From NCBI GenBank assembly GCA_048940925.1, contig JBHLOC010000022.1, positions 1 to 64,000 of the forward strand: a DNA stretch of 64,000 nt, given 5' to 3'. A model generated the notes under the pieces. It saw only the letters and a list, made by a program, of their open reading frames with translations. It was not told the origin of the DNA and did no database searches. Of this stretch, positions 28,034 to 41,393 are shown piece by piece. Numbering within the stretch: the first letter of the stretch is position 1; the number at the start of each line of letters is the position of its first letter. Source of the stretch: Promethearchaeota archaeon. Lineage in GTDB: Archaea > Asgardarchaeota > Lokiarchaeia > Sigyniarchaeales > SOKP01. The translations under genes and the position numbers were made by a program.

Positions 28034-30466
28034 TTAACTGAGCTTTTTCTTTCTCATCATTGCATAAATAATACCAATCATCGATACCGCTGAGATTGTC
28101 AATGTAATAATCAATGGAGATGCTGGAATTAGAGGTGGTTTTTCTGGAAGTCCAACATATTTTATTAACTGAAAAGTTGGTAATTCAACTTCATAATAGA
28201 AGGCAGGCTGTCCGTCTCTATTATTCATTAAGAATGTCTCCCAATCTTTCCATAAAACTGCTCCACCTTTTAGTTGATAGGCGTAGATATATGGATACAA
28301 TTCATTACATAATTTATTAGCCATTTTACTTACCATTTCGTATTTATGGAATGATGTTGACACAAACATTTCCAATATCCAGCGAGTAATATTTTCATCA
28401 AAACAGAATACACGATTATAAGCAGGATAAATCGGATCCCTTGGTGTCATATAATAAGCTTGAATCCAACCCTCTGGAATCGTCCTAGGTATGTATAGAT
28501 ACGAAATATACGCATGAGCTGAAAAAATCGAATGTGTACCATCAAAAGTGTCACTCCAATAGTAACGGAGTGTATCATAAACAAGTCCTGTCACTTTATT
28601 TTTCCCAGTTTCAACTCCTTCGCTAAAACCCACTCCAATATTCTTACAAGCCTCCTCAAAAACATTCTTTATATCTTCCACACTATCATCCCAGTACAAA
28701 TTAAGAACAAAAATGGGATCAGTCTCAGCAACCTGTTGCCAATCAGCATCCGTGCTAGCGGAAGTTAAACCTCTCTCAGCGCATCGTTGACTAAAATTAT
28801 AATTGAATGCCCCTGGTGTTTTTGTATAATTATCCTCTTCGGTTGTAAGTAAAAGCTCTCGTGCATAGTTAAGATTAAAATCAGCCATTGGCACACTCGC
28901 ATTATAAAAAATGTTTCCGCGGTATACTATGTTTCCAGGTCGAACAGCGCGACCATCTAACACAGTATTAATCATTTTATCATAATCAAATGCATAATTC
29001 AGTGCTTTACGCAGTGCTCGAGGAACCCCTGCACAAGGTTCTTTATCAGAATAGAAGCTGTATGAAGCGCGTCTATACGAATCATAGCCTAACATGGGAT
29101 CAGCCCAATATGATTCATTGATGCAATTCAATGCAATAAGAATAGCATAATTTGTAGGATAACCTTCTATATACTCTATATTCTTATTCGCCATAACTGC
29201 ATCATAATCTATTGGTGTATTAAAAGTATCAAAAGCACAATCTACTGCATGAGTCAAAACTCCAGTATTCAATGCATCTAAACCTACTGAACCTATAGGA
29301 AATCTGATAATCTCGAGTCTATCAATATCAAACCAACCGTCTTCTTCAAGAGCAGTTTTATTCCAATAATCTTCAAACTTTACCATATAACCCCCCATAG
29401 CAGTAGCTGATTCAGAATACGATACATACTTGTAGGGACCTGTACCAATACAATGATCAACGATTGTAGGATTCTTTGGATGTCGAATATACGAGGGACC
29501 TACACCGTATTCATCGTTTTTGTAACCATAAATTCCTCTCCCCGTATAATTTTTATAATAAGCGGCATATGAAATTTTTTGTGGTGTCCAAAGACCACCT
29601 ACTCCTCCATAGGTATTCCAACGATTAAAAATAACATCAATCTTTCCTCCTGATTTCTTATTTTCAGTTATTTTTACTTCTTTGATAATTGGATACCTGT
29701 CATACATTGCATAATGGATTGCACTACCGCCTTTCCATCCACCCCAAGGGTCAGGATTTCTAACAACTCCATTTTCATCAGCAGTGACTCCGGGGTATTT
29801 TGTATCTTTCCCAATTATGTAGCCCGCATACCATGAAGGATCTGGTGTAGAGGGGCCATCTACTCCATCTTCATCGAGAGTTGGTGCAGCATATTCGGAT
29901 ATATTATAATCTTTACTTTGTGACATCCACCAATCATCAACCGAATCCCAAAGTGAGGTATACCCTGACATAGAATAGCCTGTACCTTCACCGGTTAAAT
30001 TACCTGTGATCAGATATAATCGATCGATGTTCCACTTAAATACAGTAGCATTCCAATCAGAGCCATCATGGAATTTCACCCCTTCTCTAAGCGTAAAACT
30101 TATTACTCTTCTTCCACCGGAATTATTAAATCCATAAAGATTTTCTTCCACCGGTCGCCACGTTGTCTCCCAATCAGTAACAAGGATACCTTTCCACTCC
30201 TCCTCTCTTGTTTTATTTCCAATACCTCCGTCGTATGCTGCGTTTAATCCATAAGGATACTCACAAGCTATTGGAAAGAAATGAGTGAATATGACGCCTC
30301 CTACGGATATTGCAGGGTCCCAATTATCTGGACCTGCGGCGGATACGCCATATCTAAAAATTTTTATTTCCTCTTCTTTTTGAGCTTTAGCTATAGTAGG
30401 AAGAAAAGGTAATATCATAGAACTCAATAATAGAACAGACACTAAAATCTTTGAAAATTTTTTCAT
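28034..30466 (-). CDS. ABC transporter substrate-binding protein, family 5 (OppA/DppA-like), enlarged, with signal peptide and C-terminal membrane anchor
   Basis: FTLREGVKFHDGSDWNA, IGTGPYK, LRKALNYAFD; N-terminal signal peptide; C-terminal TM followed by RKKK. Confidence 0.88.
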   Translation of the reverse strand: MKKFSKILVSVLLLSSMILPFLPTIAKAQKEEEIKIFRYGVSAAGPDNWDPAISVGGVIFTHFFPIACEYPYGLNAAYDGGIGNKTREEEWKGILVTDWETTWRPVEENLYGFNNSGGRRVISFTLREGVKFHDGSDWNATVFKWNIDRLYLITGNLTGEGTGYSMSGYTSLWDSVDDWWMSQSKDYNISEYAAPTLDEDGVDGPSTPDPSWYAGYIIGKDTKYPGVTADENGVVRNPDPWGGWKGGSAIHYAMYDRYPIIKEVKITENKKSGGKIDVIFNRWNTYGGVGGLWTPQKISYAAYYKNYTGRGIYGYKNDEYGVGPSYIRHPKNPTIVDHCIGTGPYKYVSYSESATAMGGYMVKFEDYWNKTALEEDGWFDIDRLEIIRFPIGSVGLDALNTGVLTHAVDCAFDTFNTPIDYDAVMANKNIEYIEGYPTNYAILIALNCINESYWADPMLGYDSYRRASYSFYSDKEPCAGVPRALRKALNYAFDYDKMINTVLDGRAVRPGNIVYRGNIFYNASVPMADFNLNYARELLLTTEEDNYTKTPGAFNYNFSQRCAERGLTSASTDADWQQVAETDPIFVLNLYWDDSVEDIKNVFEEACKNIGVGFSEGVETGKNKVTGLVYDTLRYYWSDTFDGTHSIFSAHAYISYLYIPRTIPEGWIQAYYMTPRDPIYPAYNRVFCFDENITRWILEMFVSTSFHKYEMVSKMANKLCNELYPYIYAYQLKGGAVLWKDWETFLMNNRDGQPAFYYEVELPTFQLIKYVGLPEKPPLIPASPLIITLTISAVSMIGIIYAMMRKKKLS

Positions 30467-30934: not shown

Positions 30935-31180
30935 TTACCCAAGTTTATTCTTTCTTATCATTGCGTAAATTATGTCAATTATCGATACCGCCGAGACTGT
31001 TAATGTAATAATTAGTGGTGATCTTGGAATTAGAGGTTCTCCTTTTGAGAGTCCTACATATCTTAGGAAATACGGAGATATAAGACCCCAGTAGCCAACT
31101 GACCTATTTGCTCTATCTTTTACCCAAAATGTTTCCCATTCTTTCCATAGGCATTCCCCACCTTTTGCTTGATAAATAAA
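30935..31180 (-). pseudogene. 3' fragment (81 aa plus stop) of a second substrate-binding protein gene
   Basis: Translates FIYQAKGGECLWKEWETFWVKDRANRSVGYWGLISPYFLRYVGLSKGEPLIPRSPLIITLTVSAVSIIDIIYAMIRKNKLG*, collinear with the C-terminus of 28034..30466; no start, in-frame stop just upstream. Confidence 0.9.
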
Positions 31181-31355
31181 TCGTAATTATTAAATAAGGT
31201 TAAGTTTTTTTTATAACCATACTTAGCAATTATAAAATAATAAATAATCAGAAAATATAAACAAGAAATAGAGATACCAATAAAATTACAAAATCTCTTG
31301 ATTTTTATGTAAATTATATTATATATTTAAAAATCCTATTATATATGAAAGTGGT

Positions 31356-32426
31356 GTGGAAATGGCTCGTCAAGCTCGTAACATGATAAAGTACATTATT
31401 AAACGGATATTAATCATGTTTCCCGTTTTAATAGCAGTATTAACATTTACATGGCTTTTATCTCATATGATGGCAGTCAATCCTTATCTAAACAAAATAG
31501 GAGGTAGTTTGGAACCGGATTTATATGAACGAGTATTACGAGAAAGTGGGTGGTATGATCCTTGGTATGTAAAACTTGGTATTTACCTTAGAGATTTTTT
31601 CACTGGAAACTGGGGTGAAAGTTATGTCGTGCTCCCAGGAGAAAAAATAATAAATATAATTGCTCAAATCTTTCCTAAAACAATTGAATTAATGATATTT
31701 TCAATCATTATCGTTCCTATTATTGCTATAAAACTAGGTGTTACTTCTGCAAGACATAAGGATAAACCAAAAGATACTTTAATTCGAGGTGCTGCAATTC
31801 TAGGAGCAGGTTTCCCAGTATTTTATATTGCTGTCTTATTACAATTGTTTATTAGGCTCTCATTAAGAGATTTTACTGGAGGGGGTATTAGTATTGAGGT
31901 GTTATACTCAAATAACCCCTCATTAACACCACCAGTTCCTTCAGGGGGTGTTGGTACAGGATTTAGAACTATTGATAGTGTCTTATATAATCACCAAGTA
32001 TACTTGTGGGATACACTTATTCATTTGATCGTTCCTGTAATGTGTATGATTTTCGTATCTTTATCTAATGTAACCAGGCAGACACGATCAAGCATGTTAG
32101 ATGTTTTAGATCAAGATTATGTCAGAACAGCACGAGCAAAGGGAGTTGCAGAATCAGATGTTATCAATAAACATGCTCTTCGGAATGCTATTCTCCCTAC
32201 AAGCCATTTAGTTATTCAAGGAACTGCTCTATCACTTTTAGGATCTCTCTTCGTAGAAGTCACATTCAATTATACTGGTTTTGGATATTACATGATAATG
32301 TCGATTTATGGTGGTGATTATTTAGTAATAAACGGACTTCTTGTTTTTTCATGCATAATTATAATTTCAGGTACACTTATAGCTGATGTTGCGTATACGA
32401 TTATCGACCCTAGAATTATGTATTAA
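31356..32426 (+). CDS. ABC transporter permease, DppB/OppB-like
   Basis: KYIIKRIL, TRSSMLDVLDQDYVRTARAKG, KHALRNA, IDPRI. Confidence 0.93.
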   Translation: MEMARQARNMIKYIIKRILIMFPVLIAVLTFTWLLSHMMAVNPYLNKIGGSLEPDLYERVLRESGWYDPWYVKLGIYLRDFFTGNWGESYVVLPGEKIINIIAQIFPKTIELMIFSIIIVPIIAIKLGVTSARHKDKPKDTLIRGAAILGAGFPVFYIAVLLQLFIRLSLRDFTGGGISIEVLYSNNPSLTPPVPSGGVGTGFRTIDSVLYNHQVYLWDTLIHLIVPVMCMIFVSLSNVTRQTRSSMLDVLDQDYVRTARAKGVAESDVINKHALRNAILPTSHLVIQGTALSLLGSLFVEVTFNYTGFGYYMIMSIYGGDYLVINGLLVFSCIIIISGTLIADVAYTIIDPRIMY

Positions 32427-32449: not shown

Positions 32450-33442
32450 ATGGAACAAATTTATATTGAAGAATTAAAAGAAGAAAAAATTCTTTCAGAA
32501 TATAAAAAAAATAAATTTATTAGATATCTAAAATTCTATTTAATTCCTGGTTGGCGTGATCCAGAATTTAGTGCTGAAGAGTATGAAATTGGAAAAATTA
32601 AGTCAAAAAGGAGATTATTTAGACGCCTTATCACGCCTTTAACAATTGTGGGAATGATTATGATTATGTTTATCGCTATTTTAGGCGTTTATGCTCCTTG
32701 GTTAACACAATTTACGATAGAGAATGTTTCTAAGCCTTTTTTTCCTAATGAGGCACCATATTCTCCACCATCAGCAGCACATCCATTAGGTACTACAAAA
32801 TATGGGTATGACGTTCTTGCAAGGGTGATCTGGGGGGCAAGAACTGCACTTACTGCAGCAGCTCTTCCTGTCTTAATTTCTGTAGCAGGAGGTTTAGCAT
32901 TAGGTACAATTTCCGCCTATTTTGGTGGAAAAGTAGATTATCTTATTATGCGTTTTTGTGATTTTTGGTTTTCATTTCCATGGTTGATTCTTGTCATAAT
33001 AATTTCACCTATGATAGGACAAGATTTATATAATCTTCTACTCCTCTATGGTCTTCTTTATATACCATCTAGCACTAGGTGGGTGAGAGCTTTAGTTTTG
33101 CAGGTAAAACAGAACTTGTATGTTCAAGCAGCAATTACTGGTGGTGCAAATAAATTTAAAGTTATGTTTAAGCATGTTTTGCCTAACGCGATATCACCCC
33201 TTATAATTGGCTTTTTTGGATCGATGGCTATCGTAGTTTTAGGTTTTTCAAGTATTGCGTTTTTAGGACTGGGAGATGAAAGCTTTGCAGATTGGGGTAC
33301 TGATATTAATTATGCAAGAGGACAGCAGTTTGCTTATTGGGCAGTACTTTGGCCTGGACTTTTTATAGCAATTACAGCAGTTGGATTTATGCTCATAGGG
33401 GATGGATTAAGGGATGCGTTAGATCCTAGGCTGCATATATAA
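32450..33442 (+). CDS. ABC transporter permease, DppC/OppC-like
   Basis: HPLGTTKYGYDVLARVIWGAR, KHVLPN, GDGLRDALDPR. Confidence 0.93.
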   Translation: MEQIYIEELKEEKILSEYKKNKFIRYLKFYLIPGWRDPEFSAEEYEIGKIKSKRRLFRRLITPLTIVGMIMIMFIAILGVYAPWLTQFTIENVSKPFFPNEAPYSPPSAAHPLGTTKYGYDVLARVIWGARTALTAAALPVLISVAGGLALGTISAYFGGKVDYLIMRFCDFWFSFPWLILVIIISPMIGQDLYNLLLLYGLLYIPSSTRWVRALVLQVKQNLYVQAAITGGANKFKVMFKHVLPNAISPLIIGFFGSMAIVVLGFSSIAFLGLGDESFADWGTDINYARGQQFAYWAVLWPGLFIAITAVGFMLIGDGLRDALDPRLHI

Positions 33443-33460
33443 ATCGGAGAGGTTTTTAAA

Positions 33461-36400
33461 ATTTTAGGGATAATATTTCAAACAAGAAATCTGCCAAATT
33501 ATGGATTTGCTGTAATTGAATCTTTAGCTGCCTTTATCTTCTTGTATTTGATTTTGTTTTTTATAATTAATTTTACCTTTAAAGAAGATAAAAAAGTATT
33601 AAACGCTTATAGACGAAGTACATTAGAGACTTGTTTAATTATTTTGGGTATAATTATTGGTATTCGATTTATATTTGAAATTTTTCAATATTGGAGTTTA
33701 ATTATTCAATGGCTTAATATGGATCAATTATATTTTGCTATAATGGTAACACTTTATTTTTTTCTTTATAAAAAGTTATTAAAGAGATTTGGAATTTCAA
33801 GTTTTTCAAATGAGTCTAGTCTCAAATACCATAATTTTAATAAGGTTATTATTATTTTCATGGGGATTTCATGGATATTTGCCGCAATATTTTTTTCCAT
33901 AATGATTCTTAATATTCCAGTTCAGGGTATTGGAGTATTTGAACTCTATAAGATATTTTGGAATACTGATGAACCTCCTAATATTTTTAACTTAAGTCTA
34001 TTCTGGACTGCAGTGGTACTTTTCATTGACCTACTTTTAACTAATTTAATTAATAGAGCTTTATCAAATGAGAAACGTATTGCGAAAAAAGTCCTTAGAA
34101 ACTCGATGCTTATGAGTGCATTGATTACATATGGAATTTGGATTATCCAACTATTAGTATTTGAAGTGTATTTGAATAAATGGCTTGGTTTTGAGTTGCT
34201 TATTCAAGATATTCGTGTATTAATTATAGTTGTTTCAGGATTATATATCATATTCTTTTTTAGTTCTCTCAAAACTAAATTTTTACCAGAATTAAGCGAA
34301 ATGAGTTCAAAGAAAGTCCAAAAGCTATTAGAATTAGAAGTAGAAACGAAACATGCTAACGTAATTACAACAGAATTAACATTAGAAAACCAAGATTCGA
34401 CTCTCGATTCTGAAGTTACCGAATTTCGACCACCAGAAGCAATTTCTTTTAAAAATTATACATATCTTTTAAGAAAATTCGCCAAAATTCGTTATTTAGA
34501 TGAAGAAACTTCAACGAATAATATATTTAATAGAAAGAAAAAAGTCGCAATAATCTTGTGGAGTGTTACATTAGGTATTCTAGCGGTTATTATTTCTTTA
34601 ATATTATTTTTTTCTGATCTTATTTTTCAAGTATTATTTCTAAGTTATCTATGCGCTTTATTTTTAGTAGGAGGAGATATTAGCCTTATTTTTATTTTTA
34701 ATAGAATGAATCCTATTAATAAACGGGCTCCCAAAAAATTAATTCAAAACACAATTCTTTATGGGGGATTATTTACATTTTGGACATGGATTATACCATT
34801 TTTTATCATTTATATGTATCTTTTTATATGGATCAATGAAGCTATTATCTTAAACATTACATATATTACTCTTCTTTCGATTTTGATATTTTATTTGGGA
34901 ATTAGAATTTTAAGATGGTATGGAGTAGCTGTGAAAGTATGGGGCACACCAATAAGAAGAGCGGTTAATATTAATTTGGTTTGGCTTATCGTAAATTTAC
35001 CGTTGAGAATTTATTATTTATTTTATTACGGTGGAGTATTCACCATAGGTGAAAATCTGCCTTTTAGAATCGTTTATTTTTTTTACATTGGGGAACTTAT
35101 CATAACAGCAATTAACATTTTTATTGGTACGATTTTAATAGCGAGATCTTATAAAAGAAAATTAATAGATTCATTAAAGTTTGCTATTCCGGTTCAGATT
35201 ATATTATTTGTATTGATATTAGTCTTAACTCACATATTAGGTTTCCTTCAATCTCTTATTATATCATACCATTTCAATCTTCAAGATGCTCGTATTCCCT
35301 TACTTGTTGCAACAGGAATATATATAATATCAGTTTTCACTTCTCTAAGGATAAAAACTTTACCACAATCATCTGAAAAAATTAAGGAAAAATTCAGAAC
35401 AATCCTCCAAACTACTGAAGAAGATCAAGTCCAAGTTATGGGTATTGGGAACAATGTAATTTTAGATGTTAAAGATCTTACAACTTATTTTTATACAGAA
35501 GAGGGAATTGTTAAAGCAGTAGAAGGCGTCTCATTCAAAATATATCAAGGCGAAACTCTTGGCCTTGTAGGTGAGACAGGATGTGGAAAATCTGTAACCG
35601 CCTTATCTATCCTCCGATTAGTAAGACCTCCAGGTGAAATTAAAAGTGGGAAAGTTATATTTGATGGGGAGGAATTACATACAAAAACAGAGCAAGAATT
35701 TTTAAAATATCGAGGAAACAAAATTACAATGATTTTTCAAGATCCGCTAAATTCGTTAAATCCTGTATTTAAAATAGGTGATCAAATTTCAGAAGTATAT
35801 CGGCTCCATATGGAAGATGAATTACTAATAGAAGCAGCCAAAAAGAATACAAGTATTTATGATATTGCCCGAAAATGGAGCCAAAGAATGCTAAAAGATT
35901 TGAATATACCTACACCGAGAGTAATCTTTGACAGATACCCTCATGAACTAAGCGGAGGAATGCGTCAAAGAGTCCAAATTGCAATGGCTCTTGCCTGTAG
36001 CCCTAAATTATTAATTGCAGATGAACCAACTACTGCACTAGATGTAACAGTTCAAAATCAGATTTTAAAATTAATGAAAGAGTTAAGAAAAAAGTATAAC
36101 ACTTCAATCCTATTTATTACCCATGATTTAGGAATTATTTCAAAAATGTGTGATCGAGTTGCTGTAATGTATAGTGGGGTTATAGTTGAATATGGTGATA
36201 TAATGAAATTGTTTAAAACACCATATCATCCTTATACAAAGGGACTTATAGCATCTGTGCCAGTTGTGGGAAAAAAAAGAGAACGACTTGAGATAATACC
36301 AGGAATGGTTCCTAATTTAATATATCCGCCCTCAGGGTGTAGATTTCATCCACGTTGTCAATATTGTTTTGAACCATGTGATTCAAAGATACCGAAGAAA

Positions 36401-36508
36401 ATAGAAATAGAACCAAATTATTTTGTCGCATGTCATTTGTACGATCCTGAATATAAAGAATTAGCACAGAATTCTATAGTAAAAGTAGAAGAATTGCTAA
36501 TAGAATAA
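33461..36508 (+). CDS. ABC ATPase (DppD/OppD-like) fused to a ~640-aa multi-pass membrane domain; start uncertain (33461 ATT or 33542 TTG)
   Basis: GETGCGKS, LSGGMRQR, LLIADEPT, ITHD, HPYT, GCRFHPRC in the C-terminal ~350 aa; many TM helices N-terminally in a single open frame. Confidence 0.88.
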   Translation: MLGIIFQTRNLPNYGFAVIESLAAFIFLYLILFFIINFTFKEDKKVLNAYRRSTLETCLIILGIIIGIRFIFEIFQYWSLIIQWLNMDQLYFAIMVTLYFFLYKKLLKRFGISSFSNESSLKYHNFNKVIIIFMGISWIFAAIFFSIMILNIPVQGIGVFELYKIFWNTDEPPNIFNLSLFWTAVVLFIDLLLTNLINRALSNEKRIAKKVLRNSMLMSALITYGIWIIQLLVFEVYLNKWLGFELLIQDIRVLIIVVSGLYIIFFFSSLKTKFLPELSEMSSKKVQKLLELEVETKHANVITTELTLENQDSTLDSEVTEFRPPEAISFKNYTYLLRKFAKIRYLDEETSTNNIFNRKKKVAIILWSVTLGILAVIISLILFFSDLIFQVLFLSYLCALFLVGGDISLIFIFNRMNPINKRAPKKLIQNTILYGGLFTFWTWIIPFFIIYMYLFIWINEAIILNITYITLLSILIFYLGIRILRWYGVAVKVWGTPIRRAVNINLVWLIVNLPLRIYYLFYYGGVFTIGENLPFRIVYFFYIGELIITAINIFIGTILIARSYKRKLIDSLKFAIPVQIILFVLILVLTHILGFLQSLIISYHFNLQDARIPLLVATGIYIISVFTSLRIKTLPQSSEKIKEKFRTILQTTEEDQVQVMGIGNNVILDVKDLTTYFYTEEGIVKAVEGVSFKIYQGETLGLVGETGCGKSVTALSILRLVRPPGEIKSGKVIFDGEELHTKTEQEFLKYRGNKITMIFQDPLNSLNPVFKIGDQISEVYRLHMEDELLIEAAKKNTSIYDIARKWSQRMLKDLNIPTPRVIFDRYPHELSGGMRQRVQIAMALACSPKLLIADEPTTALDVTVQNQILKLMKELRKKYNTSILFITHDLGIISKMCDRVAVMYSGVIVEYGDIMKLFKTPYHPYTKGLIASVPVVGKKRERLEIIPGMVPNLIYPPSGCRFHPRCQYCFEPCDSKIPKKIEIEPNYFVACHLYDPEYKELAQNSIVKVEELLIE

Positions 36509-36567
36509 AGATGAATATTTGAAAACCAAATTAAAAAGATTTTAAAAATCATAAAAAAGCGATAAAA

Positions 36568-38331
36568 ATGATTTTTCCCGGATTTACAATCACAAGTTTT
36601 GTATTAGAAGGGGTGCTCTTAGTATTAATCTCAATTATTGGATTTTTCTTTTTTAGGTGGTATTCAAGAGAGAAAGGATGGGAGTATTCTTTTATGAATG
36701 CTTTTTTTATAATTGGAATATGGTTTGTTATTGAATTCTGTTTAGGGGTATTAGTTCCATATTTATTCAACGTATCTTTCTTAACGGAATCTCTGATTTC
36801 AAATATAAGCATTATCAACATCATGATAATAGGAGTAAACATCTTTATTGGACTCATTATTTTTGTAAAGTTCATTAAAAAACCACTAAAAGATTCAATA
36901 ATTTTCACTGTTGTTGTCCAAGGGTTAATATTTGGAATAGCAACTATTATCAGAATCTTATTGGGGGTGTTTATAACTATGATTACTACTGATAATGAGG
37001 ATATTTCTGCGTCGGGATCCTTATTCTTCATGATTATAATGATATTGTTTGGCATAACTGTTTTTTATGTGAATTGGGGGGATAAAATACAGTTTGTAAA
37101 ATATAGGAATATCATTATACTTATTTCTTTTATACCAGAACTAATTTATTTACAAAATCAATTTGACGTACAGGGTGACGCATTCATACGTCAATTTAGC
37201 ATAAACATAATGTGGACTATTTTAGTTTTGATAATTTCTACAACCATAGTTAAACAAGTTTCATATAGAACAATTTCTCTTAAGGAATTCAAAATTTTAC
37301 CGGTTCTTGAAAAAGGTATAGAATTACTTAAAGTAAAAGATTTAAAAGTCTATTATCCGCTTTATGGAGGAATACTTAAAAGACAGTTTGGATCTGTTAA
37401 AGCTGTTGATGGGATCTCTTTTACTATAAGAACGGGAGAGACTGTAGGATTAGTAGGGGAAAGCGGTTGTGGAAAAACTACAGTTGCATTATCAATTTTA
37501 GGATTGGTGCCAAAAGAATCAGGTGAAGTTGAATTTCATAATAATACCCTCCTTGGTGAACTAACAAGAGAAATGAGGAGAAAAATACAATTTGTATTTC
37601 AAGATCCTGATGCATCCTTGAATCCGCGAATGAAAATTGTTGATATAATCGCAGAACCCCTCAAAAATTTGTTGGGCGTTTCTGATAAAACTGAAATCAG
37701 GAAACGAGTTTTAAAATTATTAGATGAAGTGTCTTTAAAACGTGAGCATATGGATCGTTATCCTCATGAATTTTCAGGGGGTCAAAAACAAAGAATTGTT
37801 ATAGCACGAGCACTTGCTAGTAATCCCGAGTTAATTATATTAGATGAGCCTACTTCCGCTTTAGATGTATCAGTTCAAGCTCAAATTCTAAACTTACTAA
37901 AAGATTTGCAAGCTACTTATGGATATGGTTTTATGTTTATAACTCACAATTTAGCTGTCGTTAATCATATTGCTGATAGGATCGCAGTCATGTATCTTGG
38001 AAAATTTGTTGAAGTTGGCAATACAGATCAAATATTTTCAAATCCTTCACATCCCTATACTCAAGCACTTTTAGAGTCAAGAACAGAACTTGATCCTACT
38101 AATAAAGAAATTAGGTTCGTTATTAAAGGAGAAGTTCCAAGTCCAATAGCACCTCCTCCAGGATGTTCATTTAATCCTCGTTGTATTTCAGAGGCCAGAA
38201 CAAGTGATTGTATGCGAAAGGCACCTCATAAAATGGAAATTGAAGAGGGACATTATATCTGGTGCGTTAATCCTCCCATACCTATGCAGTCTAAGGTTAC
38301 AGAATCTAAAGAGAGACTATCTCTCGAATAA
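36568..38331 (+). CDS. ABC ATPase (DppF/OppF-like) fused to a ~250-aa multi-pass membrane domain
   Basis: GESGCGKT, FSGGQKQR, ILDEPTSALDVSVQAQ, HPYT, GCSFNPRC; hydrophobic N-terminus. Confidence 0.9.
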   Translation: MIFPGFTITSFVLEGVLLVLISIIGFFFFRWYSREKGWEYSFMNAFFIIGIWFVIEFCLGVLVPYLFNVSFLTESLISNISIINIMIIGVNIFIGLIIFVKFIKKPLKDSIIFTVVVQGLIFGIATIIRILLGVFITMITTDNEDISASGSLFFMIIMILFGITVFYVNWGDKIQFVKYRNIIILISFIPELIYLQNQFDVQGDAFIRQFSINIMWTILVLIISTTIVKQVSYRTISLKEFKILPVLEKGIELLKVKDLKVYYPLYGGILKRQFGSVKAVDGISFTIRTGETVGLVGESGCGKTTVALSILGLVPKESGEVEFHNNTLLGELTREMRRKIQFVFQDPDASLNPRMKIVDIIAEPLKNLLGVSDKTEIRKRVLKLLDEVSLKREHMDRYPHEFSGGQKQRIVIARALASNPELIILDEPTSALDVSVQAQILNLLKDLQATYGYGFMFITHNLAVVNHIADRIAVMYLGKFVEVGNTDQIFSNPSHPYTQALLESRTELDPTNKEIRFVIKGEVPSPIAPPPGCSFNPRCISEARTSDCMRKAPHKMEIEEGHYIWCVNPPIPMQSKVTESKERLSLE

Positions 38332-38540
38332 ATACTATATTTCTGTCCAATAATATTTTTTTTTCTATTTATTTTAGATTTAATACTCCTAATTAAATTT
38401 GGAAATTCCTCATTTTTCATTCTTTCTCAATAGAAGAAGAGAAAAAGGCGAGAAACATAAATTTATATTTATCATCTAGGTTATTTAATTAACTGATTAA
38501 AAATTGAAACTAAATCTCTCAAATAAACTGTGGTTAAATT

Positions 38541-41393
38541 ATGGAAGTATTCTTAAAACGGGCAGAAAGACCTTTTAAAGAAAGAATTGGTGAGGAAAAG
38601 ACATTGTCCCTTTTCGAAAATATAAAAAAAGCAACAAATGAAATTCCTACTAAATTTAGAAGAGTAATTGGCTCAGATATACCGAAATATCTTTTTAATT
38701 TTTCTCGAGAGGTTGAAGAACTATCACCAGAAAATATAGAAGGAGTTCTAGCCCATGTTTTGATATTTGCGAAATCTCTTAAAGATCTTATTAATAAAGA
38801 TAGAACCCAAATAACCCAAATTTTAATTAATAGAAGTGGTAACAATATGCGTAACCTTCTAGATTTATTAGACAAATTCGCGGAAAAAGCAAAGCAAGGA
38901 GATATCATTAATGACGAACTCAATTTTGAAGATATTTTAACATTTGTTGTAGGAGATAAGACAATAATTACAGATCTTAATGAAATAGAATTATTTCTTA
39001 AACGTGCTGAAGGAAATTTTTCAGATAAAATTGGTAAGGAAGAATCTCATCATTATATAGAAAAAATTGCAGAAAAATTGAAAAAAATAGATAATAGTCA
39101 CAAAGATTACCTCAGCTCAGATATCTCAAAAATTTTATTCACTTTTTCACAGAGTATTGATAAAATTTCTACAGATAATTTAAAGAAAATCCTCCATCAG
39201 GTAGTATGTTTTACCAACTCGCTTTCTGATTTAGGAAATAAAACCAAAGATCAAATTGACCAAGAGATAAGGAAAAGGAGTAAAAATCAAGTTCATTCTA
39301 TAATAGATCTTTGTAAAGCATTAATAGACGCTGCAAACGAAAATAGAATAATTAAATTATGTGAAACTCTTGATGAAATCCTTATACAGCTATATGGGGA
39401 AGAACAAAAACGAATACAATTTACTGACGTTGAAGCTTTTCTAAAACGAGCTGAAAAGAAGTATGCTATGATATTAGGAGAAGATATGATTCACTTGTTA
39501 ATGGATGAATTATTGGAGGCTATAAATCAAATCCCAGAACAACATAGGGAATATCTTGGTTCTGATCTTGCAAAGTTCCTATTTAAATTCTCAGAAACCG
39601 CATCTTTTCACGAACCAGAAAGGATTGAATTAGTATTTAATGGAGCTATTATGTTTGCTAAATCTCTAGAAGAGCTAAGCGATCTAAATAATGCGGAAAT
39701 AAATCAATTTATAATTAATAGATCAAATCATCAAGTTCGGAGTCTTTTTGAGTTATATAAAGCCTTCTTAGAAAAGATTAAGATTCGTATGCCATTATCT
39801 ATAGAACCAACATTTGATGAAATTCTCAACCATACTTTAGGTAGATATAGTGGTCCAAAAGTAATAGAAAAAGGAGGCTTAATCCATGATTTAATGGCAG
39901 ATTATCATGAAGAAATTCCAATTTCAAAAGAACATGCAAACTGGGCTAAAGCGTTATCTGAGATAATCCCAAGATTTCTTGAGATCCTCTCCAATGCGGA
40001 AGGTGACCGAATTTTAGATCTTCTTTGGGAGAATAAGTTTCCAGAGAATCAAGTTATTGATCAATATCAAGAAAAGATTGCGGAGATTCCAAGAGAAAAA
40101 GAGAAATTATTTATGTTTAGACTAATGAATATGTTAACTAACCAAATTTTAATTGATGATGAAAAAGATAAAGCATTAACTGGAGCATTAGCTTTTAGGA
40201 TCCTTGGTACCGTTTTTGTTGAGATATATGGTGGACGAAATACTCAAATTAGAGCAATTAGGCTTAGTAGTCTATTAAAAGACAGAAAGGTTTCAAATTA
40301 TGAAAAAAAGCAGGGTATCGATGACCATATAAACAGGATACTTGAAGAGGATCTTAAAGCCATCCAACAAAAAACAATGACAATTAATACAATAATTCCA
40401 ATTATAACAAAAAAAGGATATTTTATAAAAACATATGATATTGTTACAAAAGATTTTCCAGAACTAATACTTAAATTAATCACTTATCGTGAAGAAGAAC
40501 GTTTAAAAGATATTGGTGCTGACTATAAAAAATCAAGTTTTGCAGGAGAATTAATACCGCTTGTAAACGAATTTCTGCAAAAACTGGATTTAGCTAATAG
40601 ATTTTATAAAAAGTATTTTGAAGAACTTAATAAGATTGCATTTGATGCACAACAGAATATGCTAATAATCAGAAAATTTTTTAAATTATTAGTTGAGTTA
40701 AGGGAAAACTTAGATACCATTGAATTCTATGATTATAAAATTGCTAATACAGAACATTCATTATATATCTTGTTACTGAAATATTTATACACTCCTTTAT
40801 CAGAAGTTTTTGAAACTACAAGAATTATTCTTGATGAACAGGAGTACCAAAAAAAAATTATGAAACTCGATAAATATCTTAGTAAACAAAAACTGGAGCA
40901 ACTTCAACTTGATATTAAATTCACAGAACAAAAAATTAGAGAGTATGAAAATTTTAAGGATTTTGATGCATATCAAAAAATTATGAATTTAACAAAATTT
41001 CTTAATAGAGACAAGAATGAAATTAAGTTTTTCGAAATTTTGTTTAAGCTACTAGATAAATCAGAAAAAATACATGTAATTTTAAAATCAAGATTTGAAT
41101 TTTCAAAAACACTTTTAAAGTATTCAAATTCTTTGAAAAAAGTGCATTCAAGCCTTCCAGCAGCATTATCTGAAAATTTGGCTAATTTAAATGAATTTGA
41201 TCAAGAAATTGATAAAATTATTAGCCAATTAAAGGAAAAAAGTCTTTCTGGTATACTCTCACCTTTTGAATTTAGAGAAAAAAATGAATCTGCTGAAATG
41301 TCGAAGAAAGAATTACTAAATCTATATTCGAATGAGGACTTCACCCTTCATATTAAGGCTATAGGAGAAATATCAGAAGTTACCCATTTTTAA
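38541..41393 (+). CDS. Uncharacterised 950-aa helical protein with three tandem ~148-aa N-terminal repeats
   Basis: ExFLKRAE / SDxxKxLFxFS / FxxSL motifs recur three times; long intact ORF. Confidence 0.85.
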   Translation: MEVFLKRAERPFKERIGEEKTLSLFENIKKATNEIPTKFRRVIGSDIPKYLFNFSREVEELSPENIEGVLAHVLIFAKSLKDLINKDRTQITQILINRSGNNMRNLLDLLDKFAEKAKQGDIINDELNFEDILTFVVGDKTIITDLNEIELFLKRAEGNFSDKIGKEESHHYIEKIAEKLKKIDNSHKDYLSSDISKILFTFSQSIDKISTDNLKKILHQVVCFTNSLSDLGNKTKDQIDQEIRKRSKNQVHSIIDLCKALIDAANENRIIKLCETLDEILIQLYGEEQKRIQFTDVEAFLKRAEKKYAMILGEDMIHLLMDELLEAINQIPEQHREYLGSDLAKFLFKFSETASFHEPERIELVFNGAIMFAKSLEELSDLNNAEINQFIINRSNHQVRSLFELYKAFLEKIKIRMPLSIEPTFDEILNHTLGRYSGPKVIEKGGLIHDLMADYHEEIPISKEHANWAKALSEIIPRFLEILSNAEGDRILDLLWENKFPENQVIDQYQEKIAEIPREKEKLFMFRLMNMLTNQILIDDEKDKALTGALAFRILGTVFVEIYGGRNTQIRAIRLSSLLKDRKVSNYEKKQGIDDHINRILEEDLKAIQQKTMTINTIIPIITKKGYFIKTYDIVTKDFPELILKLITYREEERLKDIGADYKKSSFAGELIPLVNEFLQKLDLANRFYKKYFEELNKIAFDAQQNMLIIRKFFKLLVELRENLDTIEFYDYKIANTEHSLYILLLKYLYTPLSEVFETTRIILDEQEYQKKIMKLDKYLSKQKLEQLQLDIKFTEQKIREYENFKDFDAYQKIMNLTKFLNRDKNEIKFFEILFKLLDKSEKIHVILKSRFEFSKTLLKYSNSLKKVHSSLPAALSENLANLNEFDQEIDKIISQLKEKSLSGILSPFEFREKNESAEMSKKELLNLYSNEDFTLHIKAIGEISEVTHF

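What the first reader, a model, noticed from the sequence alone, without database searches (positions are those of the whole stretch)
33461..38331. Opp/Dpp-type importer whose two ATPases are each fused to homologous multi-pass membrane domains
Seen: both ATPases have normal DppD/DppF domains (starting at about 35459 and 37324) preceded in frame by about 640 and 250 hydrophobic residues. The extensions are modular. The DppD extension has an internal duplication: NEKRIAKKVLRNSML...QDIRVLIIVVSGLYIIFFFSSLKTKFLPELSE (~34065-34300) versus NKRAPKKLIQNTIL...QDARIPLLVATGIYIISVFTSLRIKTLPQSSE (~34715-35380). Nested in the second copy is a module (ILRWYG...W...IITAINIFIGTILIARSYKRKLIDSLKFAIPVQ) that is also the N-terminus of DppF (FFRWYS...W...MIIGVNIFIGLIIFVKFIKKPLKDSIIFTVVVQ). 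Known: in type I Opp/Dpp importers the ATPases are soluble, and both permeases (B and C) are already encoded here. Inference: this is a transporter with extra, ATPase-tethered membrane domains, possibly for gating, scaffolding or handling lipidic cargo. It is the strongest candidate for an undescribed system in the window.
Basis: partly seen in the sequence, partly recalled or inferred. Interest (0 to 1): 0.85.

Follow-up and report, generated by a model that had tools for sequence, protein, structure and literature searches.

The report
Peptide importer ATPases with built-in membrane domains
In one family of Asgard archaea, both normally soluble ATPase subunits of a peptide-type ABC importer are permanently fused to large membrane domains of no known family, built from shuffled helix modules; the fusion is real and conserved, I found it in no paper, and its role is unknown.

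Summary
The window holds a complete Opp/Dpp operon: a divergent family-5 binding protein, then DppB, DppC, DppD and DppF. DppD carries about 667 extra N-terminal residues (15 predicted membrane helices) and DppF about 255 (7 helices).

Profile comparisons confirm the modular design. Module A occurs twice in DppD. Module B, a four-helix unit, is nested in the second A and also opens DppF.

The fusions are not artefacts:
- Contigs from separate studies bridge both junctions without indels.
- About 60 of 400 Asgard genomes sampled, nearly all in one family, match the DppD-extension profile. Wherever the DppD modules match, the reading frame is long enough to include the ATPase.

A shorter 7-helix DppD form is more common. 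By the ATPase tree, the 15-helix form derives from it. Module B also occurs alone and fused to amino-acid importer permeases.

No Pfam, NCBIfam, PDB-sequence or convincing fold match exists, and no paper was found.

Best reading: an ordinary binding-protein-dependent importer with new ATPase-tethered accessory membrane domains, probably peripheral anchors or scaffolds. Their function is untested.

This scan noted related membrane inserts in DppF ATPases of other Asgard genomes.

The parts
28034..30466 (-). Family-5 solute-binding protein (810 aa), transcribed divergently. It has a signal peptide and a C-terminal 'IPASP + TM + RKKK' anchor.
   Evidence: Pfam SBP_bac_5, E 1e-22. A divergent 700-850-aa binding protein is conserved in 9 of the 10 related operons mapped; the other two (L045, L048) have a binding-protein gene beyond the ATPase genes instead.
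31356..32426 (+). DppB permease
   Evidence: BPD_transp_1, E 1e-32. It is 55-76% identical in related operons.
32450..33442 (+). DppC permease
   Evidence: BPD_transp_1, E 2e-27. It is 58-74% identical in related operons.
33461..36508 (+). Fused DppD, about 1012-1015 aa. The probable start is non-canonical: ATT at 33461 or ATA at 33470. The first canonical start (TTG 33542) would cut helix 1.
   Evidence: The frame is open from 33443. Homologs begin M-[IL]-F-Q, aligned to the window's I-I-F-Q. 38 fused homologs were found.
33488..33814 (+). N-terminal three helices of the DppD extension (residues 10-118), weakly similar to module A
   Evidence: Sub-profile hit E 2e-45; cross-hits to module A at E 1e-3 to 1e-8; AF2 helices H14-39, H44-75 and H88-109.
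33815..34351 (+). Module A, first copy (residues 119-297, 4 helices). It holds the conserved INR..EKRI.KK, Q230/E235 and QDIRVL motifs.
   Evidence: hhalign against the second copy: probability 98.6%, E 1e-15. Invariant residues are listed.
34352..34516 (+). Charged cytoplasmic linker with the conserved P-E-G-I-S-x-K motif
   Evidence: AF2 pLDDT is under 50 for residues 296-320. The linker sub-profile is conserved, E 7e-25. It has 10 K/R and 15 D/E.
34517..34840 (+). Module A, second copy, first three helices (residues 353-460)
   Evidence: hhalign; sub-profile E 2e-41.
34841..35260 (+). Module B (4 helices, residues 461-600), nested inside the second module A
   Evidence: hhalign against the DppF N-terminus: probability 99.2%, E 7e-20. 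The DppF-derived B profile hits here at E 3e-18 and 2e-15.
35261..35440 (+). Module A, second copy, last helix plus a cytoplasmic helix (residues 601-660)
   Evidence: hhalign; sub-profile E 2e-33.
35462..36508 (+). DppD ATPase domain plus the oligo_HPY tail with four Cys
   Evidence: ABC_tran E 4e-28 and oligo_HPY E 4e-20. Closest solved chain: M. tuberculosis Rv1281c (OppD), 8J5Q, E 2e-110. Walker A, signature, Walker B and H-loop motifs are all readable.
36568..38331 (+). Fused DppF (587 aa)
   Evidence: 10 fused homologs at 29-72% identity over the extension; Pfam.
36568..36993 (+). Module B at the DppF N-terminus (residues 1-142, 4 helices)
   Evidence: hhalign. It aligns with stand-alone and permease-fused B modules.
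36994..37302 (+). DppF 'tail' module (residues 143-245, 3 helices) with an invariant cytoplasmic W-G-D-K-I-Q loop
   Evidence: Invariant columns W170-Q175. The sub-profile is detected, sometimes weakly, in the DppF of 8 of the 10 related operons mapped; none was detected in L045 or L048.
37330..38331 (+). DppF ATPase domain plus the oligo_HPY tail
   Evidence: ABC_tran E 2e-34 and oligo_HPY E 3e-17.
38541..41393 (+). 950-aa repeat protein with no Pfam family. It is a conserved downstream neighbour only in the closest long-form operons, so membership in the system is uncertain.
   Evidence: No Pfam hit. It is 69-71% identical and syntenic in L044, L046 and L047, and absent from the short-form operons and from the long-form operons of the second genus.

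Best explanation
This is a complete, apparently functional binding-protein-dependent type I ABC importer of the Opp/Dpp (PepT) class. Transport itself should run as usual: the binding protein delivers substrate, DppB and DppC form the pore, and DppD and DppF hydrolyse ATP.

The unusual part is that both ATPases have gained lineage-specific N-terminal polytopic membrane domains.
- DppD carries 15 helices: three A-like helices, module A, a cytoplasmic linker, then a second module A with module B nested inside it.
- DppF carries 7 helices: module B plus a 3-helix tail.

These modules arose by duplication and cassette insertion. The 7-helix DppD form came first, and the 15-helix form derives from it.

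I infer that the extensions are built-in accessory membrane subunits, not a second translocation pathway. They would hold each ATPase permanently in the membrane beside the DppBC core. They may also provide a surface for lateral contacts, either with the core or with other membrane proteins.

Module B is a portable four-helix cassette with an even number of helices. It can therefore be added without changing topology. It recurs on other transport proteins in the same lineage.

Shown: the architecture, its conservation, the modularity, the topology and the absence of known relatives. Inferred: the peripheral anchor or scaffold role.
For: **Canonical core.**
- All five importer components are present with intact domains and ATPase motifs.

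**The fusions are real.**
- 38 DppD-type and 10 DppF-type fused homologs exist.
- Every genomic match to the DppD-specific modules, apart from those cut by contig ends, lies in a frame of 445 aa or more, most of 630 aa or more, long enough to include the ATPase. The same profile's module B part also matches small stand-alone and permease-fused frames.
- Contigs from separate studies bridge both junctions with no indels.

**Purifying selection on the extensions.**
- The DppD extension is 34-81% identical over about 650 residues, with 18 invariant positions.
- Among the invariant and nearly invariant positions are several polar ones, some inside predicted helices.

**Topology.**
- Charge counts are 25 in / 2 out and 11 in / 1 out.
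- The even helix count of B is compatible with all three fusion contexts.

**Modularity and variable dosage.**
- Related operons carry roughly zero to three B copies, as far as the profiles detect them.
- B also occurs stand-alone and fused to a polar-amino-acid permease inside a binding protein-permease-ATPase operon.
- Variable dosage fits an add-on accessory unit better than an obligatory pore element.

**Evolution.** The long form is nested within the short forms in the ATPase tree (support 98/96).

**No resemblance to ABC membrane domains.**
- No Pfam or NCBIfam model matched either extension.
- No PDB sequence matched at E up to 1.
- Foldseek found nothing at E 0.001 or better.
- The best fold match for B is an N-terminal four-helix bundle of WbaP: Z 11.2, rmsd 3.0 over 125 residues.

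**A recurrent theme.** Other Dpp ATPases of Asgard archaea also carry membrane segments. One paralogue in this genome has a hydrophobic hairpin inside its ATPase domain, and earlier scan notes report similar cases.
Against: - Fifteen plus seven helices is far more than anchoring needs.
- Conserved polar and acidic positions inside predicted helices (Q230, E235, D406, N552) and an invariant cytoplasmic WGDKIQ loop hint at a more specific activity, such as ion or ligand binding or a defined protein contact.
- Other Opp/Dpp ATPases in the same genome lack N-terminal membrane domains, so tethering of this kind is not a general need of this cell.
- Stand-alone B genes lie next to unrelated polytopic proteins rather than ABC importers, so B is not specific to importers.
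- The models are only moderately confident (pLDDT 66-71; pTM 0.42 for the DppD extension).
- I have no evidence about where the extensions sit relative to DppB and DppC.
- No expression data were available.
Confidence: 0.5

Rival explanations
1. The extensions are sensor or regulatory membrane domains. They would read a membrane or extracellular cue, such as a peptide, an ion or the lipid state. They would pass it through the short linker to the ATPase, controlling dimer closure and therefore uptake.
For: - The nearest shapes to the Atlas model of the DppF extension are membrane sensor domains of histidine kinases, at TM 0.46-0.49.
- Polar and acidic positions inside predicted helices, and cytoplasmic loops, are conserved.
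- Only one of several Opp/Dpp systems in the genome carries the N-terminal domains, as expected for a specially regulated system.
Against: - TM below 0.5 usually means a different fold, and this was only a shape search between predicted models.
- The number of B modules varies from about zero to three among orthologous operons, which is odd for a tuned sensor.
- No ligand-binding extracellular domain exists, because all outside loops are short.
Confidence: 0.17
2. The extensions organise the transporter laterally. They would dock the membrane-anchored binding protein, or link transporters to one another or to other membrane proteins through B-B or B-partner contacts, as tetraspan organisers do.
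For: - B is a mobile four-helix unit found alone, on DppD, on DppF and on amino-acid permeases.
- Stand-alone B genes have a conserved polytopic neighbour.
- All 11 binding proteins compared (this window's and ten related operons') carry a conserved C-terminal membrane anchor.
- In cultured P. syntrophicum, a family-5 binding protein is the most abundant protein detected (PMC11284389).
Against: - The anchor looks like a PGF-CTERM-type sorting signal. If so, its conservation needs no docking partner and the helix may be removed (a lead only).
- Some operons have no detectable B at all.
- There is no direct evidence for any contact.
Confidence: 0.15
3. The extensions form a second, independent translocation or channel pathway driven by the same ATPase dimer, making the complex bifunctional (for example import plus export, flipping or ion movement).
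For: - Module A is repeated in parallel orientation, a layout common in transporters.
- Conserved acidic and polar positions lie inside predicted helices.
- The N-terminal-membrane-domain-then-ATPase order is that of ABC exporters.
Against: - There is no sequence or convincing fold similarity to any ABC membrane-domain class. Exporter chains top the Foldseek list for the DppF extension only at E above 1 and TM 0.25-0.31.
- The ATPase grooves are presumably occupied by the DppB and DppC coupling helices, and both permeases are intact.
- The helix count differs greatly between the two ATPases and among orthologues.
Confidence: 0.08
4. The fusions are artefacts of assembly or gene calling, or decaying pseudogenes.
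For: - The window's own gene call for DppD is shorter, at 882 aa.
- No canonical start codon precedes the conserved N-terminus.
Against: - The frames are intact in dozens of genomes from many samples.
- The amino-acid sequence is conserved across the junctions.
- Contigs from separate studies bridge both junctions without indels.
Confidence: 0.02

Closest known systems
Opp/Dpp (PepT family, TC 3.A.1.5) type I ABC importers with solved structures: M. tuberculosis OppABCD (8J5Q), M. tuberculosis DppABCD (8WD9), E. coli DppBCDF (8Z1V) and OppBCDF (8Z21)
   Same: - The same five components and the same domain families: SBP_bac_5, two BPD_transp_1 permeases, and two ABC_tran plus oligo_HPY ATPases.
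- Intact ATPase motifs and a Cys-rich C-terminal tail.
- The DppD ATPase domain matches 8J5Q chain D at E 2e-110.
   Different: - In the matched chains, alignment to this ATPase domain begins within the first 4-29 residues, so they have no N-terminal membrane domain.
- Here the ATPases carry 15 and 7 extra N-terminal membrane helices, 22 in all. That exceeds the 12 helices that DppB plus DppC usually contribute (my own knowledge of the family).
Half-transporter ABC exporters (type IV: Sav1866, MsbA, TmrAB, PCAT1, ABCB6)
   Same: - The domain order: a polytopic membrane domain N-terminal to the ATPase in one polypeptide.
- Two different chains that would pair through their ATPase domains.
   Different: - No Pfam membrane-domain family matched either extension at E up to 1.
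- Fold matches are at noise level: E above 1 and TM 0.25-0.31.
- The helix numbers are 15 and 7, not 6 and 6.
- The ATPases are importer-class with oligo_HPY tails.
- Separate importer permeases are encoded in the operon.
Membrane modules spliced into DppF ATPase domains of other Asgard archaea
   Same: - Asgard peptide-importer ATPases that have gained a four-helix membrane module.
- That module also occurs free-standing and on other ABC importers, and was read as a built-in accessory subunit.
- A paralogous DppF in this genome has a hydrophobic hairpin inside its ATPase domain.
   Different: - Those modules sit inside the ATPase domain and were described as claudin-like.
- Here the domains are N-terminal and much larger.
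- Module B has only short outside loops.
- A short-word look-up of the scan's notes with the DppF copy of module B found only this stretch. That look-up detects only close relatives, so homology between the two kinds of module was not properly tested.
N-terminal four-helix bundle of the large phosphoglycosyl transferase WbaP (S. enterica, 8T53)
   Same: - It is the best structural match to module B: Z 11.2, rmsd 3.0 over 125 residues.
- It too lies at the N-terminus of the chain (residues 7-143).
   Different: - Sequence identity is 10%.
- Z is below the level (about 13) at which helical bundles match by common arrangement alone.
- The protein context is unrelated.

Membership tests
Opp/Dpp (PepT, TC 3.A.1.5) type I ABC importer | A family-5 extracellular solute-binding protein encoded with the transporter | tested here: met
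   SBP_bac_5, E 1e-22, at 28034-30466 on the minus strand. A family-5 binding-protein gene lies within the mapped region of all ten related operons.
Opp/Dpp (PepT, TC 3.A.1.5) type I ABC importer | Two BPD_transp_1 permeases (DppB/OppB and DppC/OppC) | tested here: met
   BPD_transp_1 at E 1e-32 and 2e-27, with weak BPD_transp_1_N and OppC_N hits.
Opp/Dpp (PepT, TC 3.A.1.5) type I ABC importer | Two ATPases with ABC_tran plus the class-specific oligo_HPY C-terminal domain and intact Walker A, signature, Walker B and H-loop motifs | tested here: met
   Pfam. NCBIfam OppD, DppD and DppF models match at E 1e-103 to 1e-107, below their full-length cut-offs. The motifs can be read.
Opp/Dpp (PepT, TC 3.A.1.5) type I ABC importer | ATPase subunits are soluble peripheral proteins without membrane helices (the usual state, not a formal criterion) | tested here: not met
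   There are 15 and 7 predicted N-terminal helices. This is the point of departure from the family.
ABC exporter-type fused membrane domain plus ATPase (type IV/V) | An N-terminal membrane domain recognisable as ABC_membrane or ABC2_membrane by sequence | tested here: not met
   hmmscan of 33 DppD-type and 10 DppF-type extensions at E up to 1 lists neither family. No PDB sequence matched at E up to 1.
ABC exporter-type fused membrane domain plus ATPase (type IV/V) | The exporter membrane-domain fold | tested here: inconclusive
   Exporter chains (ABCB6, PCAT1, TmrAB) head the Foldseek list for the DppF extension, but only at E above 1 and TM 0.25-0.31. None appears in the VIA-align lists. The models have pLDDT 66-71.
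Type VII (MacB/FtsX) ABC systems | An FtsX-type permease domain | tested here: not met
   FtsX is not among the Pfam families listed at E up to 1. Domain order also differs: in MacB the ATPase is N-terminal (my own knowledge).
Pfam DUF7672 | Score above the gathering cut-off (27 bits) | tested here: not met
   One stand-alone B protein (P0092) scores 22.4 bits, E 1e-4. The other nine proteins in that scan show no hit, and neither the DppD nor the DppF extensions match.
Claudin-like four-helix modules in Asgard ABC ATPases (earlier scan notes) | Sequence or fold relationship of module B to those modules | not tested
   Only a short-word look-up with the DppF copy of module B was run. It found no other window and is insensitive below about 60% identity.

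The most novel reading that the evidence does not exclude
Modules A and B are not passive anchors. They would form a new class of ATPase-coupled membrane machinery. One possibility is a second substrate or ion path, or a sensor that gates the importer. The other is that module B is a general archaeal tetraspan-like organiser that plugs transporters into larger membrane assemblies. In either case the ABC ATPase dimer would drive or read two membrane modules at once.
Probability: 0.2. Interest if true: 0.88.

Novelty: new variant of a known kind. Interest (0 to 1): 0.66.

Why it matters
**For transporter biology.** In the textbook picture of type I ABC importers, the ATPases are soluble and only the two permeases span the membrane. 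Here a conserved natural variant puts 22 additional helices on the ATPases. They are built from modules with no relatives in Pfam, NCBIfam or the PDB. This gives structural biologists a defined target: what can be bolted onto an ABC motor, and to what end?

**For the evolution of membrane proteins.** The family shows evolution by cassette shuffling in action:
- duplication of module A;
- insertion of an even-numbered four-helix unit, which preserves topology;
- spread of that unit to other transporters.

**For Asgard biology.**
- The system lies in Asgard archaea, the closest known prokaryotic relatives of eukaryotes.
- The cultured P. syntrophicum degrades amino acids and peptides, and a family-5 binding protein is its most abundant detected protein (PMC7997004, PMC11284389).
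- Together with other notes from this scan, the finding suggests that membrane-tethering of importer ATPases recurs in this phylum.

Tried and rejected
**Attempts that gave no answer**
- Complex prediction of DppB + DppC + the DppF extension gave no verdict (score 0.00; the controls were not run). It says nothing either way.
- No RNA holder was listed for the stretch, so there is no information on expression.
- Fold searches found no convincing relative:
  - Foldseek against the PDB, both extensions: nothing at E 0.001 or better.
  - VIA-align wide: generic helical bundles only. The best was Z 9.5 for the DppF extension and Z 11.2 (WbaP) for module B in DppD.
  - ESM Atlas by shape and by features: TM 0.49 or less, score 0.82 or less.
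  - The 667-residue model was searched whole.
- Pfam and NCBIfam scans, and PDB sequence searches, of the extensions found nothing.
- Four literature searches found no description of these fusions. A transporter census of Asgard genomes (PMC7997004) does not mention them in the passages I searched.

**Ideas rejected**
- A split DppD: P0052, which looked like the second half alone, is a fragment at a contig end.
- A DppC feature specific to fused operons: the conserved cytoplasmic N-terminus of DppC is shared with paralogues whose ATPases lack N-terminal membrane domains.
- Stop-codon read-through joining DppC to DppD: the two frames coincide in this window only and differ in relatives.
- Kinship of the polytopic neighbours of stand-alone B with module A or the DppF tail: no significant profile hits.
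- The binding-protein anchor as a recognised PGF-CTERM: no NCBIfam hit. The genome has only a sub-threshold archaeosortase-like match.

Full report
**What is in the window**

Between 28034 and 38331 lies a complete Opp/Dpp-class ABC importer locus.
- An 810-aa family-5 binding protein lies on the minus strand.
- On the plus strand follow DppB (31356-32426), DppC (32450-33442), a very long DppD frame (open from 33443 to 36508) and a long DppF (36568-38331).
- Pfam places ABC_tran plus oligo_HPY at residues 661-946 of the 988-aa DppD reading and at 281-539 of DppF. Nothing matches the N-terminal parts.
- NCBIfam models likewise cover only the C-terminal ATPase parts.
- Both ATPase domains keep the Walker A, signature, Walker B and H-loop motifs.
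- The closest solved chain is M. tuberculosis OppD, 8J5Q, at E 2e-110.

**The extensions are polytopic membrane domains**

- Hydropathy and AlphaFold2 models built on family alignments agree. The DppD model has pLDDT 71 and the DppF model 66.
- DppD has 15 helices: seven, then a charged and partly disordered linker (about residues 276-354), then eight. DppF has seven.
- With the ATPase inside the cell, both N-termini lie outside.
- Loop charges fit this strongly: K+R is 25 inside versus 2 outside for DppD, and 11 versus 1 for DppF.

**The modular design is confirmed**

I built alignments of 33 DppD-type and 10 DppF-type extensions and compared sub-profiles.
- DppD residues 123-290 match residues 353-650 (hhalign probability 98.6%, E 1e-15). 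The second copy has an insert of about 130 residues.
- That insert matches DppF residues 8-135 (probability 99.2%, E 7e-20).
- HMM cross-searches agree. They also show that the first three DppD helices weakly resemble module A.

The resulting layout is as follows.
- DppD = A-like (3 helices) + A (4) + linker + A (3 + 1) with B (4) nested inside.
- DppF = B (4) + a distinct 3-helix tail with an invariant W-G-D-K-I-Q cytoplasmic loop.
- B has an even number of helices and both its ends lie outside, so it can be inserted or prefixed without changing topology.

**The fusions are not artefacts**

- The extension of DppD alone finds 38 proteins at 34-81% identity. Most are about 975-1040 residues, a few are shorter forms or fragments, and nearly all also carry ABC_tran and oligo_HPY.
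- The DppF extension finds 10 proteins at 29-72% identity, nine of 564-587 residues and one partial.
- Every source name that places them gives an Asgard label: Promethearchaeota, Lokiarchaeota, Thorarchaeota and similar. The rest are generic metagenome labels.
- Contigs from separate studies cover 33300-36151 and 33300-36096, across the DppD junction. The second differs at 16 positions, so it is another strain.
- Other contigs cover 36329-37776, 36111-38400 and 37015-37773, across the DppF junction. No indels were reported.
- One of these runs may be the sample that the window was assembled from.

**Distribution**

- An exhaustive profile search of 1.84 billion representative proteins found only 85 matches.
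- Among 400 genomes of the phylum, 60 match. Of these, 56 belong to one family (56 of 134 genomes, besides this one), concentrated in two genera.
- Every match to the DppD-specific modules, apart from those cut by contig ends, lies in a frame of 445 aa or more, most of 630 aa or more, long enough to include the ATPase. I saw no true split form.
- The one candidate for a split gene was a fragment at a contig end.

**Variants**

- A short DppD (three A-like helices + A + ATPase, about 640 aa) is more common than the long form. It occurs in up to three copies per genome.
- The long form was found in about 16 genomes.
- In a tree of DppD ATPase domains rooted on DppF, most long forms make a clade (support 98/96) nested among short forms. 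The long form is therefore derived.
- The relation to the ATPase paralogues that lack the N-terminal domains is unresolved.

Operon maps of ten relatives show the same order. In eight the binding protein is divergent and upstream; in the two long-form operons of the second genus it lies beyond the ATPase genes. The content of DppF varies:
- usually B plus the tail;
- the tail only, in one case;
- no detectable module, in two cases;
- about three B copies, in one case.

**Module B elsewhere**

- B occurs as a stand-alone protein of about 105-180 aa.
- This genome has one such gene, at C82:47168-47512.
- B is also fused to the N-terminus of a BPD_transp_1 permease, in an operon of binding protein (SBP_bac_3), permease, ATPase and permease.
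- Frames of about 365-378 aa, the size of that permease fusion, hold a B match in at least 11 genomes.
- One stand-alone B overlaps the start of a permease gene.
- Other stand-alone B genes follow polytopic proteins of about 480-500 aa with no family. This neighbourhood is conserved. Those proteins are unrelated to module A or the DppF tail.
- Many family members begin M-[IL]-[FL]-Q.

**What it is not**

- No Pfam family matched the extensions. One stand-alone B gave a sub-threshold DUF7672 hit.
- No PDB sequence matched at E up to 1.
- Foldseek found nothing at E 0.001 or better. ABC exporters top the list for the DppF extension only at E above 1 and TM 0.25-0.31.
- VIA-align gave generic bundles. 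The best match is module B against the N-terminal four-helix bundle of WbaP (Z 11.2, rmsd 3.0, 125 residues). That is under the level at which helical bundles match by arrangement alone.
- The Atlas searches gave leads only.
- I found no paper describing these fusions.

**How it probably works**

- The importer core is intact, so transport should follow the standard type I cycle. That mechanism is established knowledge of the family. The substrate is unknown.
- Archaeal members of this class are known to take up oligosaccharides as well as peptides (my own knowledge).
- For the extensions I favour a built-in accessory role: they tether each ATPase in the membrane next to DppB and DppC and offer lateral contact surfaces.

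Reasons for this reading:
- the variable dosage of B;
- its portability to other transport proteins;
- the absence of any ABC membrane-domain signature;
- the intact permeases;
- a wider pattern of membrane segments in Asgard Dpp ATPases.

That wider pattern rests on a paralogous DppF in this genome with a hydrophobic two-helix hairpin inside its ATPase domain. Earlier scan notes also report four-helix inserts in other Asgard genomes.

Against a purely passive anchor:
- the sheer size of the extensions;
- conserved polar and acidic positions inside predicted helices (Q230, E235, D406, N552);
- conserved cytoplasmic loops;
- other Opp/Dpp ATPases of the same genome lack N-terminal membrane domains.

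Sensor, organiser and second-pathway readings therefore stay open. A complex prediction gave no verdict.

**Verdict**

- This is a new variant of a known kind of system, restricted to one Asgard family and undescribed as far as I could search.
- Its function still has to be found by experiment.

Noticed in passing
window 33443-33545; also L010, L011/L049, L014/L051, L018/L054, L020: The conserved N-terminus of the fused DppD has no ATG, GTG or TTG in this window or in five other long-form loci. All six share 'AA(A/G) ATT' 7-9 nt after an SD-like GAGG. The codon aligned with the ATG of other homologs is ATA here (33470). This suggests a non-canonical start codon that gene callers miss: the window's own gene call is only 882 aa.
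   Followed up: partly
G000:C89:15657-17063 (own genome, another contig): A paralogous DppF, otherwise without an N-terminal extension, has an insert of about 60 residues with two hydrophobic helices inside its ATPase domain, between Walker A and the Q-loop. It recalls the four-helix inserts noted in other Asgard genomes by this scan.
   Followed up: partly
window 28034-28130 (C-terminus of the binding protein) and the binding proteins of L039-L048: All 11 binding proteins end in '(I/L)PG(Y/F/A)(S/P)' or 'IPASP', then a membrane helix, then RKK(K). This resembles a PGF-CTERM sorting signal. No NCBIfam PGF-CTERM hit was found. The genome has only a sub-threshold archaeosortase-like frame (C48:24424-24777, 33.6 bits against a cut-off of 75).
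   Followed up: partly
window 30938-31186 (-): An 83-codon frame is 56% identical to the last 82 residues of the binding protein. It is a remnant of a second binding-protein gene, as another first-reader note says.
   Followed up: partly
window 38541-41393 (+): A 950-aa repeat protein with no Pfam family is conserved (69-71% identity) directly downstream of DppF in the three closest long-form operons. It is absent from the short-form operons and from the long-form operons of the second genus.
   Followed up: partly
L078 3158-4588 and 4617-6122 (G000:C82), with L079-L082: Two paralogous polytopic proteins of about 480-500 aa (38% identical, no Pfam family, internal repeats such as NW..FKL) precede the stand-alone module B gene. 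In this genome a 153-aa gene and an approximately 290-aa gene lie upstream on the opposite strand. The same neighbourhood recurs in three other Asgard assemblies, sometimes with only one polytopic gene or a WD40 protein.
   Followed up: partly
family-wide:: DppD extensions, DppF extensions, stand-alone B proteins and B-permease fusions very often start M-[IL]-[FL]-Q, followed after about 8-12 residues by helix 1. This may be a shared N-terminal signature of these N-out membrane proteins. Its meaning is unknown.
   Followed up: no
L043 3846-5906 (-) (G130, another family of the order): The DppF of this operon carries about three copies of module B in tandem before the tail. Its ATPase domain appears split over two frames, which may be a frameshift or a sequencing error.
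   Followed up: no
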